From assembly GCA_964016885.1 (NCBI GenBank), contig OZ024743.1:187054001-187118000 (forward strand): a stretch of 64,000 bases of DNA, read 5' to 3'. Within the stretch, counting starts at the first letter, position 1. Each line of letters begins with the position of its first letter. Position numbers and translations under genes: made by a program. Under the pieces are notes generated by a model, which made no database searches, was not told the origin of the DNA, and saw nothing but the letters and a program-made list of their open reading frames with translations. The stretch comes from Eledone cirrhosa (Eukaryota). Positions 25,747-45,480 of this stretch are shown piece after piece.

Positions 25747-28646
25747 CATCATCATCATCAAGGTTTAGCGTCCGTGTTCCACGCTTGCATGGGTTTGGAC
25801 GGGGGTTTTCCCACTTGAGGCAAGAGTGGTTGTCTTGCTCGCATAGGACTGTCTGGCGGGTTTTCTACAGCTGGATGCCCTTCCTAACACCAACCACATT
25901 TACAGTGTGGGTCTGGGAGGTTTTTACCGTGTTGCCTGCACGGCCACATTTACAGCGTGGACTGTGTGTTTTTTTTTCTCGTGACACCTACACGATCTCA
26001 TTTGTCTCGGCCTGGATGTTGTGGCACCAACATAACTTTACATTGAAAGGGGCGGTGTGGATGAGGTGGGGGTGGTGGGACGGGGGTGTGTTTTGATAGA
26101 GATGCCTACTGACTGTAGTAGGTTTTACTTTGTATTTAGGTAAGGCAGGTCTTCTCTATTACTGAGTACCACCAAAGGTCTCGGTCCAGTGACATTGTCT
26201 TGGAGAGGTGTAAGCGTGTGAGGTCGGAATTTATCATGTCATCCCAGGTTTTTCTGGGTCTGCCTACTCCGTGGCTACCGTCTATCTTTATTGCCCTGCA
26301 CTTTGTTATACAGCTGTCGTCTTTCATGCGCATCACGTGACCATACCAACGTAGCCTTCTCTCGAGTAAACAACAACTGATCCCTCTTATTTCTAATTTT
26401 TTCCTTAGTTCGTTTATGCTTAGCCGTTCACGTATATTACTATTGCACATCCAGCGGAGCATGCAAGCTTCGTTCCTCTCTAGTCTGCGTATATCCTCTG
26501 CATACAATGCCCAGGTCTCACTGCCATGCAGCATTGCTGTTCGTATGTAGGCATCATACAACCTGCCTTTCATTTTTAGGGAGAACCCTTTAGCGGCTAA
26601 TAGTGGTATAAGCTCTCTGAACTTTTTCCATCCAGTTCTGACTCTAGCTACTGTACTTTCGGAGCACCCTCCCCCACTGCTGATTTTGTCACCCAGGTAA
26701 CGGAAGCTGTCCACTATTTCTATAGAACCCCCTGCGCAATTGAAAGAGCTAGTATTTTGTGGGCACTTGCTGCTACTTATTGCACCAGAGCACACGCCAC
26801 ATGTAAAATCTATGTTCTTACTTAGTTTACCTGTGATCCCACTACATCTTTTATGCACACATACTTTGCATTTGGGACATAAAATGGAGTTTCTACCTAC
26901 GCCTTTCCTACACACTGAGCATGGCCATTTCCCGGAAGGGACCGCCGCCTTATTTTCTTTCCTACAAACTAGAACTTTAGTCTTAGCCAGGTTAATTTTA
27001 AGGCCTTTTGATTCTAGGCCGTGCTTCCATGTTTGGAATTTCTTCTCTAGTTCGGTCATTGATTCAGCTATGAGCGTTAGATCATCTGCGTATAGGAGTT
27101 CCCATGGGCAGCCGGTCTTGAACTCCTCTGTTATAGCCTGAAGGGCAATAATAAATAGTAGGGGGCTAAGAACAGAGCCCTGATGGACACCAACTTTTAC
27201 GCTAAACTCTTCACTATATTCGTTGTTAATTCTAACCTTGCTGACTGTTTCTTTATACATGGCTTGTATAGCTCTCACAAGCCATTCGTCAACACCTAGT
27301 TTTCTAAGAGCCCACCAGATAATGGAACGGGGGACTCTGTCGAAGGCTTTCTCCAGGTCGACAAAAGCTAAGTATAGGGGTTTACTTTTAGCTAGGTACT
27401 TCTCCTGTAGTTGTCGTACAATGAAAAGAGCGTCTGTTGTACTTTTGCCTGACACAAACCCGAACTGCATTTCATCTAGATCAATTCTCTCTCTGATTAG
27501 TTGCGCTAATACTTTTTCCGTGACCTTCATGACCTAGTCGATTAATTTAATGCCTCTATAGTTACACCTATCTAGGGCATCTCCTTTACCCTTGTAACAG
27601 TTAATGATGATGCTGCTATGCCAGTCCTTCGGAACAACCCCATTCTGTATGACTTGGTTTACTATCCGGGTGACCATGGTGTGTCCCACCGTTCCAGAGG
27701 CTTTCAGCATCTCAGCAACTATTTCCGAAGGCCCAGCCACCTTACCCATCTTCATATCTTTGATTGCCTTACTTATTATACTATCTTCGACTAACACTGC
27801 TGGTCCCTCTATTGGGTCGATGTGGGGGAAACTGTCTTTCTCCCATTTGTTCTCCTCATTTAGAAGCCTTTCGTAGTGACACTTCCAAGCTACCTTCTTA
27901 TCAACGTCAGTGATGGCAAGTATGCCACCATCATTAAGTACACACTTCTCCCCGACAATATCACGGTTTTCCTTGACACATTGCCTAGCAATCCTGAACA
28001 CCTCACGTTTTTGGTCCTCACATTGTAGAACATGCTTGAACTTTCTTTCCTCTGCTTCCCTTCTTGCGAAGTACACTTGTCTCCTAGCTTCCCTCCTGGC
28101 CACTTGATAGTCTTCTCTACTTCCCCCATCCCGCCATACTTTCCAAGCCTGCTTTTTGGCCTTAATTGACTCCTCCACCTTACTGTTCCACCACCATGTT
28201 ACTCTCCTCCTACCTACAGGCCTGCTCCAGCCACAGACATCGTCTGCCGCCGTCAGCAGGTTTGCTTTCAGGAATTCCCACTGTTCCTCTATATTATACG
28301 ACTCTAATTGCTCTTCCTTACTGTCGAAAGCATCAAGTAATATGCTTTGAAATTTATTTCTGGCCATGGGGTCCTTTAGCTTCCATATTTTTCTCCTGAG
28401 GATAGTCCTCTTCTGCTGTCTAGTACGTCTCGTCCTGACTATGAGGTCGCTAATTATCAGTCTATGTTGGGAGGTGCATTCTTCATGGGGGGGGGGGGAT
28501 TTAGTGTTAACAACAGACACTCTGTCACGTCTTCTGGTAAGGATATAATCTACCTGGCTTGTGTGTTCCCCCGATCTATAGGTGATCAAGTGATTGTCTC
28601 GTTTTTTGAAGTTAGTGTTACAGATAGTTAGGTTATTTGCGTCACG
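25747..28646 (-). mobile_element. RTE-clade LINE, near-intact, truncated within the APE endonuclease
   Basis: APE end (TYRS..QVDYIL..SQHRLI), RT motifs YRGIKL, QFGF, DLEKAFD, GVHQGSVLSP, YADD, FRYLG; (GAT)n tail. Confidence 0.95.
26136..28646 (-). pseudogene. RTE endonuclease-reverse transcriptase ORF broken by one in-frame stop
   Basis: ORFs 27534-28646 and 26136-27530 share a frame, separated by TAG in LID*VMKV. Confidence 0.9.
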
Positions 28647-30200
<1,554 letters not shown>

Positions 30201-30367
30201 AGATAGGTAAATATACACGGGTGTGTATGATTGTGTATAGAAGATTATATTAATAAGAGGAATTCCAACTTTGTCTGATTTACTCGTTTTATTTACAACC
30301 TTTTAAAATATATATAATGGTATTATAATGAAATAGTATGATAGAATATTAAATTCTAAGTGTTAAT

Positions 30368-30406
30368 TGAACAAGTACTTTCATGCTTTCGCAATCTTCA
30401 GGTTCA
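30368..30406 (-). ncRNA. Minimal type-I hammerhead ribozyme in pLTR (sense to the ORF)
   Basis: Reverse complement of 31619-31657. Confidence 0.8.
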
Positions 30407-30589
30407 TGATATGTGGTGACAGTCGAGTTTGCAATTTTCAACTGTAATGAGATGGGTAAATTTCCTACTTTTTATACATTTTATACAGAGAAAAGTGGCT
30501 CCAGAATGCAAAGCCATGTAAACTGTATTTCGACCAATCAGTGTGTATTAATCATTTTCCTATTAATCATCACCACCAACATCACTTTA

Positions 30590-30682
<93 letters not shown>

Positions 30683-30712
30683 GGTGGTCGTGGTCATAGT
30701 GGTCAGGCGTTA

Positions 30713-31192
30713 TTATTGTTCATTTAGCTTGGGTTTGAATTTATCAATAAAATTCTTTTCTTTGATTTTTCTCTTGATTTCACTTGGGCTGTGTAATTTG
30801 TAGAATGGGAATATTATAAATATTCCCTGACCACATGTTGCCAGGTGGCCGCTTAGGGGTATCTGACGGACATTTGGGTCTCTGATTTGTTGACGGTGTA
30901 CACGTGCACGTTCCGATAGTGCATTTCCAGTTTGACCGACATATAGTTCTTCACAATTCAGGCATTTAATGCAGTAAATTAGATTTCTGCTTTTGCAGTT
31001 CATATTTGCATTTGGGAATATTTTTCCAGTTTTTGTTTTCATATATTGACCGGCGTGTATGGATTGACATGTGCCGCATCGATTATCATTGCATTTAGAT
31101 ACAGTGAATGATTGGTCTTTGTTGTTAAGGTCAAACTTTGCTTTTGTTAGCAATTGCTTCAAATTTTTTGGCTGTCTTTTACTAAGAGTCAA
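30713..31192 (-). CDS. PLE GIY-YIG endonuclease domain (C-terminal fragment of the RT-EN polyprotein), Neptune-like
   Basis: CNDNRCGTC linker, NLIYCIKC..CEELYVGQT....ER...H, HLATC, KEKNFI. Confidence 0.88.
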   Translation of the reverse strand: MTLSKRQPKNLKQLLTKAKFDLNNKDQSFTVSKCNDNRCGTCQSIHAGQYMKTKTGKIFPNANMNCKSRNLIYCIKCLNCEELYVGQTGNALSERARVHRQQIRDPNVRQIPLSGHLATCGQGIFIIFPFYKLHSPSEIKRKIKEKNFIDKFKPKLNEQ

Positions 31193-31618
31193 AGATCGAT
31201 CTGTGATTTATTGATAAATTCAAACACAAGCTAAATGAACAATAATAACGCCTAGGGGTATTACTTCTACTACCACTATGACCACGACCACTAACAACAA
31301 CAACAACAACAATAATAATAATAATAAAAGTGATGTTGATGGTGATGATTAATAGAAAATGCTATTTTCATCATTTCAAAAAGCAAAACAATTGATACGT
31401 TGGATATGACTATTGGTCGTTAACATGATCAACCAGCCGTGACGCTTAAACCAATCAGCTGTAGTAATTCAGTGAAACTACACACTGATTGGTCTAAATA
31501 CAGTTTACAGGGCTTTGAATTCTGGAGCCACTTTTCTCTGTATAAAATGTATAAAGGTAGGAAATTTACCCATCTCATTACAGTTGAAAATTGCAAACTC
31601 GACTGTCACCACATATCA

Positions 31619-31657
31619 TGAACCTGAAGATTGCGAAAGCATGAAAGTACTTGTTCA
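31619..31657 (+). ncRNA. Minimal type-I hammerhead ribozyme in inverted pLTR
   Basis: tgaac CTGAAGA t-tgc-gaaa-gca-t GAAA GTAC TT gttca: 5-bp stem I, GAAA-tetraloop stem II, palindromic AGTACT stem III. Confidence 0.8.
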
Positions 31658-32200
31658 ATTAACACTTAGAATTTAATATTCTATCATACTATTTCATTAT
31701 AATACCATTATATATATTTTAAAGGATTGTAAATAAAACGAGTAAATTGGGATACAACAAGTAAATATTTTTATAACTGATATAATTTCATATAATTTGT
31801 TAACTCAACTTAATATGACATGACGTAAAATTTTCGTTATCTCCCCTTCTCTCTATATATTATTTCTCTCTCTTGAGTCTCTCTATCTGTCTGATGATTT
31901 GATCTATCTGTTGCTTTCCTCTGTTTTTCTTATTTATTCCTTTTTTTCTTCTTTCTTTCTTTCCTCCTGTCTTTATTTAGCTCTTCCTTTTTTTCTCCAC
32001 GCATTTGTCTCTCTCCGATATTTCTCCACGCTTTTTTTCTTTTTCTTTTTTCTTTCTCTCCGTCTTTTCTAATTGTCCGTAACGCTAAGACTTATTAAAA
32101 TAATATAAACAATTCACTATCCAGATGGCCTCCAAAAATAATGGTCGCATTTTAAAAGTGTACGTCAAAGCTTATTTGTAAAACTGTTATATATTGTATT

Positions 32201-35535: not shown

Positions 35536-37909
35536 ACTTTGAATAACTTTGAAATGTTTTGGCCAGTATTGGCCCAGGCCATGTCTAACTTAATAGCACC
35601 ACCTGGCGAAGTCTTTCAATTCAAGCTTTGGGCACCATGGCCCATTCGAGAAGAGAATTACTGTTTGCGGAGACATATCCGGGTGTGGGTGGTTTGTCCG
35701 GGATTACTTGGAGGAATTTGTCCAAAGACTTCTTGAATTTTGAGTGGTCAGTTTCTGTTTGACGTGTCCTGGTGTGATGTTGAAGAGAGCAAGGGCCGAT
35801 TGAGGTGAAATAATTGTGCCGTATTGTTGTTATGAGTTGCGATTTAGATTTTGAATGGACGGATAGCACGGGGCCCAAGCCTTGGGTGTATCTTGAAGGC
35901 GATGCCAACATCATTTGGGCAGTGATGATGGAACATTTTCCACATCATGCAGATAATATAACGCTCACGGCGACGTTGGAGTGAGTAAAGTTTCAGGTTT
36001 TCCAATCGACCCCAGTAGTCAAGGTCTGACATGCCATCTATCTTTTTCGTGATTGCCCTTTGAGGAGCTTCAAGTTTCATGATACTTTGTCTCGTGTGGG
36101 GAGACCACAGTGGACAACAGTATTCAAGGTGTGGTCGGGCGAAAGTAGAGAAGAGAAGGATAATGGTGCGGGAATCTCTCGACTGGAAGGTTCTGAGGAT
36201 CCAGGAACACATTCTGCGGGCCATGTCAACTTTGCTGCTTATATGCGTGGTCCAGCTTATGTTGCTGTCCACGGTTACTCCCAAGTCTCTGATGTTGTTA
36301 GATGCCACGAGAGTTTCCCCGGAGGGAAGGGAGTACGGGAGTTTCAGAGCATCCTCTTTTCCAAAGTGGATCAGTTCGAATTTGTCCTCGTTCAGTAACA
36401 TGTTGTTCTTTTCTGCCCATTGGGTAACAGCCAGTAGGTCTGACTGAAGGCTTATCCGGTCATCCACGCCATTGATGACCTTTTGGAGCTTGGAATCATC
36501 AGCGAAAATTTTAATGTTGCTGTGTTTGATGATGTCAGTGATGTCATTAATATAGATGATGAAGAGAAGTGGGCCCAACACAGTGCCTTGTGGGACTCCA
36601 CTACTGACTTTGGCTGGGCTTGATTTGACTCCCTCAACTACAACATGTTGGGTTCTGTTTGACAGGAAGCTCTTGATCCACTGCAGCAGCTTTCCAGTGA
36701 CACCAATATTGGACAGCTTTCTCAGTAGAATTTTATGATCAACCCTGTCAAAGGCCTTGCTGAAATCAAGGTAGATAACATCAGTGTTGGAACCCTCTCC
36801 AAGGCTCTCAAAATGTCATCAAAGTGATGCAGTAGTTGCGTCAGGCAATCCCTTCCATTATGGAATCCATGCTGGTTGGAGTTCAGCATATTGTTACTCT
36901 CAAGGAAGTGGGTCATTCGCGATCTCACCACTCGCTCAAATACCTTAATGATATGAGAGGTGAGTGAGATTGGACGGTAATTCACGGCAAGGGATTTGTT
37001 TCCCTTTTTGAAAACTGGGACAACAGACTGGGATAGAAGGTTTTCTGGCACATATCCAGCATCCAGTGAGTTCTGCCACAGATTGGCAAGAGGAGAAGCA
37101 AGTTGGTGTTGACACGCCTTCAGGACACAAGCAGGGAACCTATCGGGACCTACTGCTGAATTATGCTTGATTTCCTTTATTGCCGCCAAGACATCAGGGG
37201 CGCCAAACGTTATGTCCGATAAGGTGTAATGGGGAGTAACATCGCCTATACAGCCCAGATCGGCCATATCAGGATTGCTGAAAACAGAGCAGTATTGTTT
37301 CTGCAGTATCTCACCCATGGTTTTAGCATTGTCTTGAAGAGTGCCATTTTCATCAATTAGAGGGCCAACAGTAGAGCCAGTGATTTTGTGTTTTTTTGCA
37401 AATGAAAAGAACACTTTGGGATTGAGTTTGATCTTCTCAATGGCACAGGCCTCTTCAGCTCTTCTCTGATTGTTGATGAGGGACATTATGTTGTTTTGGA
37501 GGTTATGTTTTTTAATCTCTAGTGATGAAATGGCAGTCAAGTTGATGTGTTGCTGCTGACAGTATTTCAGCTTGTTGATTTTTTTGTTCGTTGTCTTAAT
37601 TTTTCTGATGAGCGTTTTTCTATTTCTAGGGATTCTGCTCTTAGATTTGTTTATAGTTCTTAATGGGGCGTGTTTAGCACATATGTTTGTAACAGTGTCC
37701 ACAAATGTCTGCCAGGACTTTTTGATGTTAGTGGGTGTATGAGTGTGCGTGAAGGACCAGTTGACATGTGCAAGATCATGACTGATCGCTTCCCAGTTTG
37801 CATTGTGGAAATCCATAGCGTCAAACGGATGGACAGGAGAGATGACATTGCGTTTGTATATTGGACGGTGGAATCTCAGATCACAGAGAACCATGTCATG
37901 ATCAGAGAG
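35534..37909 (-). mobile_element. CR1-group LINE ORF2, 5'-truncated and frameshifted
   Basis: [62 protein letters not shown]; frameshifts near 36795 and 35850; both ends in (TA)n. Confidence 0.9.
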
Positions 37910-39457
<1,548 letters not shown>

Positions 39458-39459
<2 letters not shown>

Positions 39460-39760
39460 AGGCACATGGCTTAGTGGTTAGAGCATTGGCCTTGGGCTGT
39501 GAGTTCAATCCTCAGACCGCGTGATGTGTTGTTTCCTTGAGCAAGACACTTTATTTCACATTGCTCCAGTTTACTGGAGTCCCTATCATTCCACTGCAAA
39601 GTGGTCATGGAGGCGCCACGGCAAAAAAAAGCACCCAGCACTCACTGTAAATGAGGTTGGTGTTAGGAAGGGCATCCAGCTGTAGAAATCAAGCCAGAAT
39701 CAGTTCCCATCCCACCCTTGCAAGCAGGGAAATGAAATGCGGTCGTAAAATGATGATGAT
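39458..39760 (+). mobile_element. CORE-type SINE with RTE-like tail
   Basis: GGAGGCACATGGCTTAGTGG head, B box GAGTTCAATCC, (TGA)n tail. Confidence 0.85.
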
Positions 39761-39940: not shown

Positions 39941-40134
39941 TGGATTGGCAGTATCGGTAGAGGGTCGGACGCCATGCTTTCCAGCATAGTTACGTCCCTT
40001 TACGATCTGAGTTCAAATCCCGCCGAGGTTGACTTTGCCTTTCATCCTTACGAGCTCGATAAAATAAAGTACCAGAAGTACCAGTAATGTACTGGGTAAT
40101 TGCTGGCCTTGTGCCAAAAAGTAGAAACAATTAT
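39941..40134 (+). mobile_element. tRNA SINE family 2
   Basis: Near-identical to 10574-10760. Confidence 0.85.
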
Positions 40135-41123: not shown

Positions 41124-41224
41124 TATATATATATATAGTAATAATAATAAATTTGAAGACTAAAATCCAAAGAGGGCTCGATAAGGATAAATATATATCA
41201 AATATATATATATATATATATATA

Positions 41225-41255
<31 letters not shown>

Positions 41256-41297
41256 TTATATATATATATAAATATATATATATAAATATAAATATAT

Positions 41298-41867
41298 ATC
41301 ATCATCATCATCATCATCAACGTTTAACGTCCGTGTTCCACGCTTGCATGGGTTTGGACGGGGGTAGTCCCACTTGAGGCAAGAGTGATTGTCTTGCTCG
41401 CATAGGACTGTCTGGCAGGTTTTCTACAGTTGGATGCCCTTCCTAACACCAACCACATTTACAGTGTGGGTCTGGGAGGTTTTTACCGTGTTGCCTACAC
41501 GGCCACATTACAGCGTGGACTGTGTGTTTTTTTGTCGTGACACCTACACGATCTCATTTGTTTCGGCCTGGATGGCGCGGCACCAACATAACTTTACATA
41601 GAACGGGGTGGTGTGGATGGGGTGGGGGTGGTGGCGGGACGGGGTGTAGTTTGTTAGAGATGCCTACTGGCAAGGCGGGTCTTCTCTGTTACTGAGTACC
41701 GCCAAAGGTCACGGTCCAGTGACATTGTCTTGGAGAGGTGTAAGTGTGTGAGGTCGGAGTTTATCAGCTCATCCCATGTTTTTCTAGGTCTGCCTATTCC
41801 GTGGCTACCGTCTATCTTTATTGCCCTGCACTTTGTAATACAGCTATCGACTTTCATGCGCATCACG
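41298..41867 (-). mobile_element. RTE LINE 3' fragment
   Basis: Matches 24229-24841, with a ~28-bp deletion at the stop codon. Confidence 0.9.
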
Positions 41868-41899
41868 TATAAATATATATATATAAATATATATATATA

Positions 41900-41930
<31 letters not shown>

Positions 41931-42071
41931 TTATATATATATATAAATATATATATATAAATATAAATATATATATAAATATATATATATAAATATATAT
42001 ATATAAATATATATATATATTTATATATATATATAAATAAATATAAATATATATATAAATATATATATATA

Positions 42072-42541
<470 letters not shown>

Positions 42542-42635
42542 TATATATATATATATATATATACATTATGAAGAGAGAAGAAACATTTAGATATAATTAG
42601 TAATAAAATGTATCATACCTAAACTGTTCCTAAAT

Positions 42636-42723
42636 TCCTCGACTACGTAGTTTCGTGGCATAAACAAAAACAATATATCAAAGATATAGAGTCCTTGCGA
42701 GGTCTGCCGACTTATCAAGAGGA
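42636..42723 (-). ncRNA. Variant type-I hammerhead, inverted copy with G10.1-C11.1 pair
   Basis: Reverse complement reads tcctc TTGATAA gtcggca..tgccac GAAA CTACGTAG TC gagga. Confidence 0.72.
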
Positions 42724-42883
42724 TACCTCATTTTACTAGTCTCAAGAACGCGTCTACACGACGTGAGAAAGAGGCTTAGCTCTGTTTCTCGACCGTTATA
42801 TCGCGTGACAATCTCCCCCTCCGCCTTTTGGGATTCTTTCTCACGTCGTGTAGACGCGTTCTTGAGACTAGTAAAATGAGGTA

Positions 42884-42971
42884 TCCTCTTGATAAGTCGG
42901 CAGACCTCGCAAGGACTCTATATCTTTGATATATTGTTTTTGTTTATGCCATGAAACTACGTAGTCGAGGA
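42884..42971 (+). ncRNA. Variant type-I hammerhead (U3:A8 core, extended stem II)
   Basis: tcctc TTGATAA gtcggca..tgccat GAAA CTACGTAG TC gagga. Confidence 0.7.
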
Positions 42972-43244
42972 ATTTAGGAACAGTTTAGGTATGATACATT
43001 TTATTACTAATTATATCTAAATGTTTCTTCTCTCTTCATAATGTATTTTTAACTCTGATACTGGTTCAGTCTAGTTCAAACTGAATTGGTCTGTCCCAGT
43101 CATTCATTGAGCAACATCGGTGAAGTTGGCACCCTTAACTCACAGTTGGGTGCGGATGCGTTCATGTATATATGTGTGCGTCCGCATGTATCTGTGTGTT
43201 TCTAAATATATATATATACACACATTATATATATATATATACAC

Positions 43245-43725
<481 letters not shown>

Positions 43726-43811
43726 ATATATATATATATATACACATTTTATATATATACACATTTTATATATATATATATATATATACACATTATATAT
43801 ATATATATATA

Positions 43812-44002
43812 TAATTGTTTCTACTTTAGGCACAAGGCCAGCAAATTACCCAGTACATTACTGGTACTTTATTTTATCGACCCCGTAAGGATGAAAGGCA
43901 AAGTTAACCTCGGCGGGATTTGAACTCAGACTGTAAAGGGACGTAACTATGCTAGAAAGCATGGCGTCCAACCCTCTACCGATACTGCCAATTCACCGCC
44001 CT
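43812..44002 (-). mobile_element. tRNA SINE family 2, full length, tail-to-tail with 43535
   Basis: Reverse complement of the same consensus. Confidence 0.88.
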
Positions 44003-45480
44003 ATATATATATAATAAGAGAGAGAGAGAGTAGGGAGAGAGATAGTTAGATAGATCGACAGAGAGAGAGAGAGAGAGAAATCATCAACACAACACCAGGT
44101 CTATGTGTGTGTGTATTTTTATGCGTGAAAAAAAAGAAAAGAATAATTAGCTAGAAAGATAGACAGGTTGAAATGGAAATATAATAGAGCACACACACAC
44201 ACACACGCCGTGTGTGTAAGCCAATGATGAACATAGTATTTTGTCTGTCATTAATATGCTCGTGTGTTTGGGCCATTTACTTCAGTGTTTACAACAAACG
44301 CCTGCTCAATATACTGCATCAAATACATGACTGTTTTACATTTTAGGCTCACTCTTTCCCTCACTTCATCTCTTACTCTCTCTTTCCTTCTCTCTATCTC
44401 CTCTCACTCTCTGTCTATATCTTTATCTTCCCTCATTTTCCACTCATTCTTATTCCCTCTCTCTTAATTCACTCTCTCTCTCTACTTCTTTTATATACTT
44501 ACTCTTTATCTCTTTCATTTCATCATTTACTCACTATTTCTCTCTCTCTTTCTCTGTCTATTCCCTTCATTTTACACTCATTCTTTGTCTCTTTTACTTC
44601 ATCACTTACTCTTTTCATCTCTCTCTCTTTCAGTCTATCTCCCCCCTTTTTACACTTACTGATTTTTCTTTTTCTCTCACTACATCTCTTACTTCCCCTC
44701 CCTTTCCTTCTATCATCCTCTCTGTCTATATCCCATCTTTCTCACTATCTCCTTTCTTTTTATCTCTATCTCCCTTCTTTCTTCTTTTCTTTCTATCTCC
44801 CTTCTCGCTCGCTCTTTCCCAATCTACCCTCTTCTCTCTCTTTCACTCCCTATCTATTTCCTTATGCACCCCAGTAAATTTACTGAAAGGTGGGTGAATG
44901 AAGCAAAAATGGCCCGAGTGATTGGGCCTTCTCTGTTTTTGTGTCTGTAGGTTGAGGAATAAAGCAAAAGGAAGAAAGGAGCACTTGCACAACACGCTCC
45001 TGGAGTTGAGGGTTGTTCTATCGACAACCCATTTGTGGCGCCTCCCCCCTATTGGGGATTTTGATTGTTGTAATTGTTTGTTTTTATATTTTTTACACGA
45101 CTGTATGTAAAATCCCTGGCATGTCTTTGTATTGTCCCCTTTTCTTGTGCGCCCTTGTGGCTAATAAAGAAATATATCTATTTCCTTCTTTCTCTCAATA
45201 AGTATCTCTCCCTTTTTTCGTTTTTCACCCTTTCTTTATTTTACTGTCTTTCCTTCTTTTTCATTCATTTTCTTACTCTATCTCCCTTTCATTTTCATTT
45301 TCTGTCTGAGTTTTGTCTTTCTCATCATCTCCCACATAAGTGAATACACACATAAAAACATGCAAACATACAAATATGCATACATTTATATTCATACTTA
45401 CAAGCACACATATACACATTCACACACAGACCTATGTGTGTATGTATGTATGTGTGTATGTATGAATGTATGTCTTACTA

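What the first reader, a model, noticed from the sequence alone, without database searches (positions are those of the whole stretch)
42561..43046. Recent 212-bp-arm fold-back with a non-canonical U3:A8 hammerhead and branched stem II
Seen: both arms carry stem I tcctc/gagga, UUGAUAA instead of CUGAUGA, GAAA, a 10-nt palindrome ACTACGTAGT and a GUC site. Stem II (gt-c-ggca/tgcc-ac) encloses two further hairpins (cct-cgca-agg; tatatc-ttt-gatata). Established: positions 3 and 8 form a Watson-Crick tertiary pair, so C3U plus G8A is compensatory. Inference: a functional, recently inserted ribozyme element that CUGANGA searches would miss; the extra domain may bind protein or stabilise folding, and either strand yields a ribozyme plus long dsRNA.
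Basis: partly seen in the sequence, partly recalled or inferred. Interest (0 to 1): 0.82.

Follow-up and report, generated by a model that had tools for sequence, protein, structure and literature searches.

The report
Penelope-type retrozyme with two fixed ends
This inverted repeat is one insertion of a roughly 590-base non-coding repeat whose hammerhead motif occurs about 7,000 times in the genome; it is likely a self-cutting RNA spread by Penelope-type retrotransposon enzymes, and the two arms of such insertions end at two different fixed sites, which would mean two separate priming events per insertion.

Summary
The 212-bp arms and the U3:A8 hammerhead motif are real, but the unit of interest is larger. 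The window holds one head-to-head insertion (42561-43211) of a 591-597-nt non-coding tandem unit; its full hammerhead motif occurs 7,142 times in the genome (control 0). The 62-nt 'spacer' and 165 nt beyond the right arm are element sequence. Copies sit in (TA)n, are 5'-truncated at random and end at two fixed 3' sites, E1 and E2. Of 50 fold-backs, 45 pair E1 with E2; none is E1+E1 or E2+E2; 22 of 49 have arms that are not nested. This fits a non-LTR retrozyme mobilised by a Penelope-like element (PLE). A young RT+GIY-YIG family in the genome has the same U3:A8 core, target and two-end rule, but no sequence homology, so the partner is unproven. U3:A8 cores and PLE fold-backs are published. Stem II is one long unbranched hairpin, not branched. 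In this locus the antisense arm comes first on both strands, so it is probably a poor ribozyme source. Cleavage and expression are untested. New: a 165-nt tail, the strict end-pairing rule and the long stem II.

The parts
42542..42560 (.). (TA)n target, left flank
   Evidence: sequence; same flank type in most insertions
42561..42772 (-). Left arm: unit positions 1-212, 5'-truncated copy ending at fixed end E1
42636..42723 (-). Type I hammerhead motif, U3:A8 core, G10.1-C11.1 intact; predicted cut between 42641 and 42640
42769..42772 (.). Head-to-head junction, 4-bp overlap shared by both arms
42769..42834 (+). The 'spacer': unit positions 526-591, the 5'-truncated start of the right arm
42835..43211 (+). 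Right arm: unit positions 1-377, ending at fixed end E2
42884..42971 (+). Type I hammerhead motif, U3:A8 core; 11.1 is U (42952); predicted cut between 42966 and 42967
42910..42942 (+). Distal stem II: one unbranched interrupted hairpin (7-8 bp plus 6 bp)
42956..42965 (+). 10-nt palindromic stem III; predicted 10-bp dimer duplex -12.9 kcal/mol, no stable hairpin alone
42976..43028 (+). Predicted long hairpin between the cut site and E1; the old subfamily has matched single-base deletions on its two sides
43047..43211 (+). 165-nt 'tail' between E1 (43046) and E2 (43211), present on one arm only
43212..43534 (.). (TA)n target, right flank
   Evidence: sequence

Best explanation
The fold-back is one head-to-head insertion of a 591-nt non-coding tandem repeat with a U3:A8 hammerhead motif, likely a non-LTR retrozyme that is copied into (TA)n by the reverse transcriptase and GIY-YIG endonuclease of a Penelope-like element. 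Shown: family size, tandem arrays, (TA)n targets, random 5' truncation, two fixed 3' ends 165 nt apart, one of each per fold-back. Inferred: tandem loci are transcribed; the hammerhead likely folds co-transcriptionally as a dimer through the palindromic stem III and would cut out 591-nt monomers that may circularise. The PLE protein would nick both strands of a TA run; one nick primes reverse transcription at E1 and the other at E2, on multimeric or circular RNA from one source lineage; the two truncated cDNAs would be joined head-to-head by microhomology. If one arm fails, a linear E1 or E2 copy is left. The window copy is likely a passive product, since its antisense arm precedes the ribozyme on either strand.
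For: Tandem 591-597-nt units and fixed ends. 7,142 full motifs, control 0. 79 distinct complete insertions among 120 loci examined: 50 fold-backs, 45 E1+E2, 0 E1+E1, 0 E2+E2, 5 other; 29 linear (17 E1, 12 E2) (L086 and L089 look like one duplicated insertion). Ends share a few TA-type bases with the flank. Junctions: overlap in 29, blunt in 4, extra bases in 17 of 50 (counted). Arms not nested in 22 of 49 (18 after dropping three odd alignments and the duplicate). Arms share a 7-marker genotype in 24 of 28. Sense monomer folds far better than shuffles as a circle (z -7.6, 40 shuffles; antisense -125 vs sense -169 kcal/mol). Core almost invariant. A young full-length PLE (L121; RVT_1 and GIY-YIG; CxxxxCxxC linker; 150 of 150 scored hits at 98-100% identity) has U3:A8 hammerheads in both terminal repeats, ends in (TA)n, pairs E1 with E2 in 8 of 8 loci with two terminal ends, and has cut-to-E1 distance 82 nt against 80 nt here. 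Literature: head-to-head inverted copies with a tail at one end (PMC8557442, PMC3846280); two RT start sites that define the tail, both strands cut and extended, predicted protein dimer (PMC11167929); retrozymes as PLE derivatives (10.64898/2026.07.22.740005).
Against: No autonomous partner with homologous sequence was found: no match beyond simple repeats in 50 GIY-YIG loci (one nested copy, L116, set aside) and z at most 2.1 against five families' terminal regions. Only 150 of 10,596 GIY-YIG candidates were scored. No pair in the hammerhead alignment changes on both sides, and the column shuffles equal the observed scores; 2 of 174 pairs do so across 5 full units. Equilibrium folding gives stem I probability 0 even without the antisense arm, in a tandem transcript and in the right arm alone, so the active fold must be transient or assisted. 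0 of 13 polymorphic core columns against 83 of 503 elsewhere is not significant alone, and 30 loci were picked by a core word. Published PLE-type hammerheads are often weak: low activity (PMC4209133), 8 of 9 Xenopus retrozyme dimers uncut (10.64898/2026.07.22.740005), cleavage not needed for insertion in vitro (PMC11167929). The same-genotype result is partly expected if subfamilies were active at different times.
Confidence: 0.75

Rival explanations
1. Same PLE-dependent family, but the second arm arises by copy-back: one cDNA folds on itself (or self-primes on an antisense template) and is extended until it reaches the other end site.
For: Self-priming was proposed for PLE inverted repeats (PMC3846280). 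27 of 49 fold-backs are nested, arms share genotype in 24 of 28, and short overlaps mark 29 of 50 junctions. The window copy itself is nested.
Against: 22 of 49 fold-backs (18 after exclusions) have arms of which neither is contained in the other, one with no overlap at all (L160). These need a second template or loss of the loop after copying.
Confidence: 0.2
2. The element is mobilised by PLE enzymes from long read-through RNA, and the hammerhead does not cut in vivo; it is kept as a protein-binding or folding element.
For: Stem I is not in the equilibrium fold of long transcripts; stem III is weak; hammerhead cleavage was dispensable for PAc insertion in vitro (PMC11167929).
Against: All catalytic positions are kept across subfamilies 82% identical; mismatch cores did not amplify; related retrozymes of mussel, coral and axolotl cut and give circles (PMC7229834).
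Confidence: 0.25
3. The unit is the terminal repeat of an autonomous PLE family not yet found, and these copies are its 5'-truncated pieces.
For: Most PLE copies are truncated (PMC8557442). Only 50 GIY-YIG loci were compared.
Against: Arrays of three or more whole units with no coding sequence between them (L006, L008, L057-L059). Every internal E2 context seen continues into the next unit. Longest ORF is 75 codons and is frameshifted in L008.
Confidence: 0.1
4. The palindrome is an assembly or sequencing fold-back artefact, or a DNA-transposon (MITE/foldback) terminal repeat.
For: The junction was not confirmed in reads (one search gave no test).
Against: 50 fold-backs with different junctions but the same two ends, unequal arms, arm-specific substitutions and TA flanks on both sides; 29 linear copies without inverted ends.
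Confidence: 0.02

Closest known systems
Non-LTR retrozymes of animals (PMC7229834; bioRxiv 10.64898/2026.07.22.740005)
   Same: Non-coding tandem unit, one type I hammerhead per unit, GC below 50% (42%), thousands of copies, highly self-paired predicted circle, PLEs in the same genome.
   Different: Unit 591-597 nt (170-400 nt in the 2020 paper, within 51-972 nt in the preprint); U3:A8 core; domain II of 55-60 nt; fixed two-end, head-to-head insertion signature not described in the parts I read; expression and cleavage untested here.
Penelope-like elements with GIY-YIG endonuclease, Neptune/Nematis-type linker (PMC8557442, PMC3846280, PMC11167929)
   Same: Head-to-head 5'-truncated inverted copy, partial tandems, tail at one end, (TA)n targets, hammerhead upstream of the 3' ends.
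   Different: No RT or endonuclease; tail 165 nt against 30-40 nt in print and 68 nt in this genome's family A; no homology to the five PLE terminal regions tested.
U3-A8 minimal hammerheads of Schistosoma Cercyon PLEs (PMC4209133) and natural U3:A8 covariants (PMC3088659)
   Same: Same core covariation, palindromic stem III, 5-bp stem I, opposite-strand pairs 100-700 bp apart.
   Different: Stem II there is 7-8 bp; here about 19 bp in three segments, and the motif sits in a regular tandem unit.

Membership tests
Type I hammerhead ribozyme | Core YUGANRA, GAAA and NUH around three stems, with a Watson-Crick 3:8 pair | tested here: met
   U3:A8 accepted as a natural active covariant in PMC3088659
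Type I hammerhead ribozyme | Compensatory covariation of stems within the family | tested here: inconclusive
   99.4% of cells paired but only one-sided changes, 0 two-sided; no C3:G8 copy in this family; a different homologous element pair in the genome does covary U3:A8/C3:G8
Type I hammerhead ribozyme | Match to an Rfam hammerhead model | tested here: not met
   canonical PLE hammerheads in L124 were also missed, so this is weak
Type I hammerhead ribozyme | Loop 1-loop 2 tertiary contact | not tested
   no model built
Type I hammerhead ribozyme | Self-cleavage at NUH | not testable with these tools
   needs in vitro assay
Non-LTR retrozyme | Tandem repeats with a complete type I hammerhead in consecutive units | tested here: met
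Non-LTR retrozyme | No protein coding capacity | tested here: met
   longest ORF 75 codons, not frame-conserved; no tRNA-like head
Non-LTR retrozyme | Strongly self-paired monomer | tested here: met
   z -7.6 as a circle, sense strand; prediction only
Non-LTR retrozyme | Expressed as unit-length linear and circular RNA | not testable with these tools
   no suitable RNA reads could be laid
Non-LTR retrozyme | Target-site duplication | tested here: inconclusive
   flanks are (TA)n
Autonomous Penelope-like element | ORF with RT and GIY-YIG endonuclease | tested here: not met
PLE-mobilised non-autonomous element | Head-to-head inverted 5'-truncated copy with a tail at one end, microsatellite target | tested here: met
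   45 of 50 fold-backs; tail longer than published
PLE-mobilised non-autonomous element | Sequence homology to the terminal repeat of an autonomous PLE | tested here: not met
   none in 50 GIY-YIG loci and five terminal regions; search incomplete
MITE / foldback DNA transposon | Matching terminal inverted repeats at both ends | tested here: not met
   ends differ (E1 vs E2), junctions vary, 29 of 79 insertions are linear

The most novel reading that the evidence does not exclude
Every Penelope-type insertion is a paired event: a protein dimer nicks both strands of a TA run and primes one cDNA at E1 and the other at E2 on retrozyme RNA (one circle, or two RNAs held by the palindromic hammerhead helix), and tandem arrays are written at insertion by rolling round the circle. 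This 591-nt RNA would be a minimal natural substrate in which the two start sites have moved 165 nt apart.
Probability: 0.35. Interest if true: 0.7.

Novelty: new variant of a known kind. Interest (0 to 1): 0.42.

Why it matters
How PLEs make inverted repeats and tails, and whether animal retrozymes are really moved by PLE enzymes, are open: the 2026 preprint rests on co-occurrence and phylogeny and invokes unequal crossover for arrays, and the 2024 in vitro study saw no strand difference in start sites. Here thousands of young copies of a small non-coding element carry the PLE insertion signature directly, with a near-absolute one-of-each end rule and non-nested arms. With a young candidate enzyme family in the same genome, that makes two-primer versus copy-back models testable.

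Tried and rejected
Rfam: no hammerhead family among listed matches; one search listed only the best 150 of 303, nearly all microsatellite look-alikes. Branched stem II: rejected. Short-stem-II relative that might mark the parent: 7 matches, all read as deletion or junction products of the same family; loci not studied further. Partner by homology: none; the 545-nt tandem element in L200 resembles the hammerhead but z is 1.9. C3:G8 subfamily: 0 copies. 75-codon ORF: not conserved. Sequencing runs: no RNA holder listed. Laying four runs: 0 reads from the raw Hi-C run, so no test; one 621-nt contig in X3 wraps round the unit (591+30, my reading: a cyclic assembly of a tandem or circle), library type not on record; no record spans the junction; the many coded organism labels were not used as evidence of spread. 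Tandem Repeats Finder missed the unit (period limit 500). One stem II index was mis-set and is not used. Earlier scan notes: three look-ups, nothing found. A possible intron overlapping the hammerhead or tail was seen by eye only and not tested.

Full report
1. Observation. The arms are 42561-42772 and 42835-43046, 212 bp with one mismatch at 42655/42952 and 62 nt between them. Each carries stem I (5 bp), UUGAUAA, GAAA, a 10-nt palindrome and GUC; predicted cuts are after 42966 (+) and 42641 (-). The one mismatch lies in the ribozyme: the right arm has U at 11.1, a CpG-type change common among copies. Rfam listed no hammerhead.

2. What it belongs to. The arm is part of a 591-597-nt unit that occurs in tandem arrays and fold-backs. 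In the window the left arm is unit 1-212 on minus; the right arm is unit 526-591 plus 1-377 on plus, with a 4-bp overlap at the junction. The insertion is therefore 42561-43211, between two TA runs. The 3.0-Gb genome has 8,149 exact copies of the GAAA-to-GUC word (control 7) and 7,142 full motifs (control 0). Subfamilies range from near-identical to 82%. The window copy is 97.6-98.6% identical to the L006 unit.

3. Insertion rule. Among 120 loci from four searches, 79 distinct complete insertions were found. 3' ends fall at unit position about 212 (E1) or 377-379 (E2) and run into (TA)n with a few shared bases; 5' ends are scattered. Of 50 fold-backs, 45 have one E1 and one E2 arm, none has two of a kind, and 5 are other or complex; L086 and L089 appear to be one duplicated insertion. 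The 29 linear copies are 17 E1 and 12 E2. The loci are top hits and first-listed matches, not a random sample. Junctions overlap in 29, are blunt in 4 and have extra bases in 17 of 50 (my count). In 22 of 49 fold-backs neither arm is contained in the other (L154 dropped out; 18 remain without L005, L079, L165 and the duplicate), which a simple copy-back cannot give. Arms share a 7-marker genotype in 24 of 28 (19% expected from a pooled draw, an underestimate because subfamilies differ in age).

4. The ribozyme. I aligned 29 of 90 distinct hammerhead sequences, chosen to cover recurring variants. No pair changes on both sides, so this is compatibility, not proven covariation. Stem III is weak alone and gives a -12.9 kcal/mol duplex as a dimer. 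Core columns have minor frequency 0.005 against 0.040 elsewhere (with the bias noted above). Genome-wide, C3:A8 occurs 6 times, U3:G8 8 times and C3:G8 never in this family. The monomer folds as a circle at -169 kcal/mol against -136 +/- 4 for 40 shuffles; its antisense gives -125. Five full units give 174 consensus pairs, 2 with two-sided change. Against activity: stem I has equilibrium probability 0 in the fold-back transcript but also in a tandem transcript and in the right arm alone. That the fold-back is a poor ribozyme source is thus an inference from order of synthesis (antisense first on both strands), not from these energies.

5. Candidate enzymes. GIY-YIG matches are abundant (150 scored of 10,596 candidates). 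L121 is a full-length PLE with RVT_1 (below the curated cut-off) and GIY-YIG, a CxxxxCxxC linker (Neptune/Nematis-type per PMC8557442, clade not tested by tree) and U3:A8 hammerheads in both terminal repeats. Its family is young (150 of 150 scored hits 98-100% identical), ends in (TA)n, and pairs E1 with E2 in 8 of 8 loci with two terminal ends (five were selected for E2). Cut-to-E1 is 82 nt against 80 nt here; cut-to-E2 is 150 against 245. By eye (output partly cut), three more PLE families have U3:A8-type cores and two have C3:G8. No homology to the 591-nt unit was found, so family A is a candidate by shared habits only. Other non-coding hammerhead elements lie in these loci, including a homologous pair with U3:A8 and C3:G8 (z 45) and a 545-nt tandem unit with a long unbranched stem II and canonical core. 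The finding is one of several such families in this genome.

6. Mechanism. Shown: sections 2-5. Inferred: dimeric self-cleavage and circularisation (by analogy with PMC7229834), nicking of both strands, priming at E1 and E2, microhomology joining. I put PLE-dependent mobilisation at about 0.85, cleavage by the family at about 0.7 and the two-primer model at about 0.55-0.6.

7. Literature seen. PMC4209133: parts 1-2 of 4; U3-A8 variant with about 1,300 hits, opposite-strand pairs, low activity. PMC3088659: passages; natural U3:A8 covariation, active in vitro. PMC11167929: parts 1-2 of 4. PMC8557442: passages. PMC3846280: passages. PMC7229834: parts 2-3 of 6 and passages. bioRxiv 10.64898/2026.07.22.740005: parts 1-3 of 5; its supplements are closed and list no mollusc in the text I read. 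PMC8490949 and PMC9901934: passages, not used. Lunse et al. 2017 (PMC5785218) was not held and may describe similar variants. Ten searches showed no description of this family, of a 165-nt tail or of a strict end-pairing count; the library lacks most subscription papers and repeat databases, and no supplement was read.

8. Verdict. A new variant of a known kind: a non-LTR retrozyme-like family with a clear PLE insertion signature. Interest 0.42.

Noticed in passing
window 30200-31800: A second, unrelated PLE fold-back: GIY-YIG ORF end with CxxxxCxxC linker (30713-31207, minus), terminal repeat with a canonical minimal hammerhead near 30400, and an inverted copy near 31630.
   Followed up: partly
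L121:3273-9315 (G000:C1:145.87 Mb): Full-length young PLE, about 5 kb, U3:A8 hammerheads in both terminal repeats, two ends 68 nt apart; many copies have a 775-aa open frame; an upstream reading frame and a possible intron starting in stem III were seen by eye.
   Followed up: partly
L200:1-730: Another tandem element, 545-nt period, canonical C3:G8 core, about 50-nt unbranched domain II, 10-nt palindromic stem III, ending in (TA)n.
   Followed up: partly
L121:230-720 and L203:1-720: Homologous small non-coding elements, one with U3:A8 and one with C3:G8 core; the L203 copy is itself a fold-back with two different ends.
   Followed up: partly
L110, L124, L126, L128, L134: Further hammerhead-like motifs with long domain II (25-50 nt) and canonical cores.
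   Followed up: no
L076:770-1066: A diverged fold-back (71-83% identity to the unit), suggesting an older relative of this family.
   Followed up: no
window 24640-29460, 35844-39511, 41200-42530: Fragments of LINE-like reverse transcriptase ORFs interrupted by TA runs, and an 889-nt direct duplication just left of the finding.
   Followed up: no
window 43534-44003: Another inverted repeat (160-nt arms, 95%) made of a short repeated element that also occurs near 40000.
   Followed up: no
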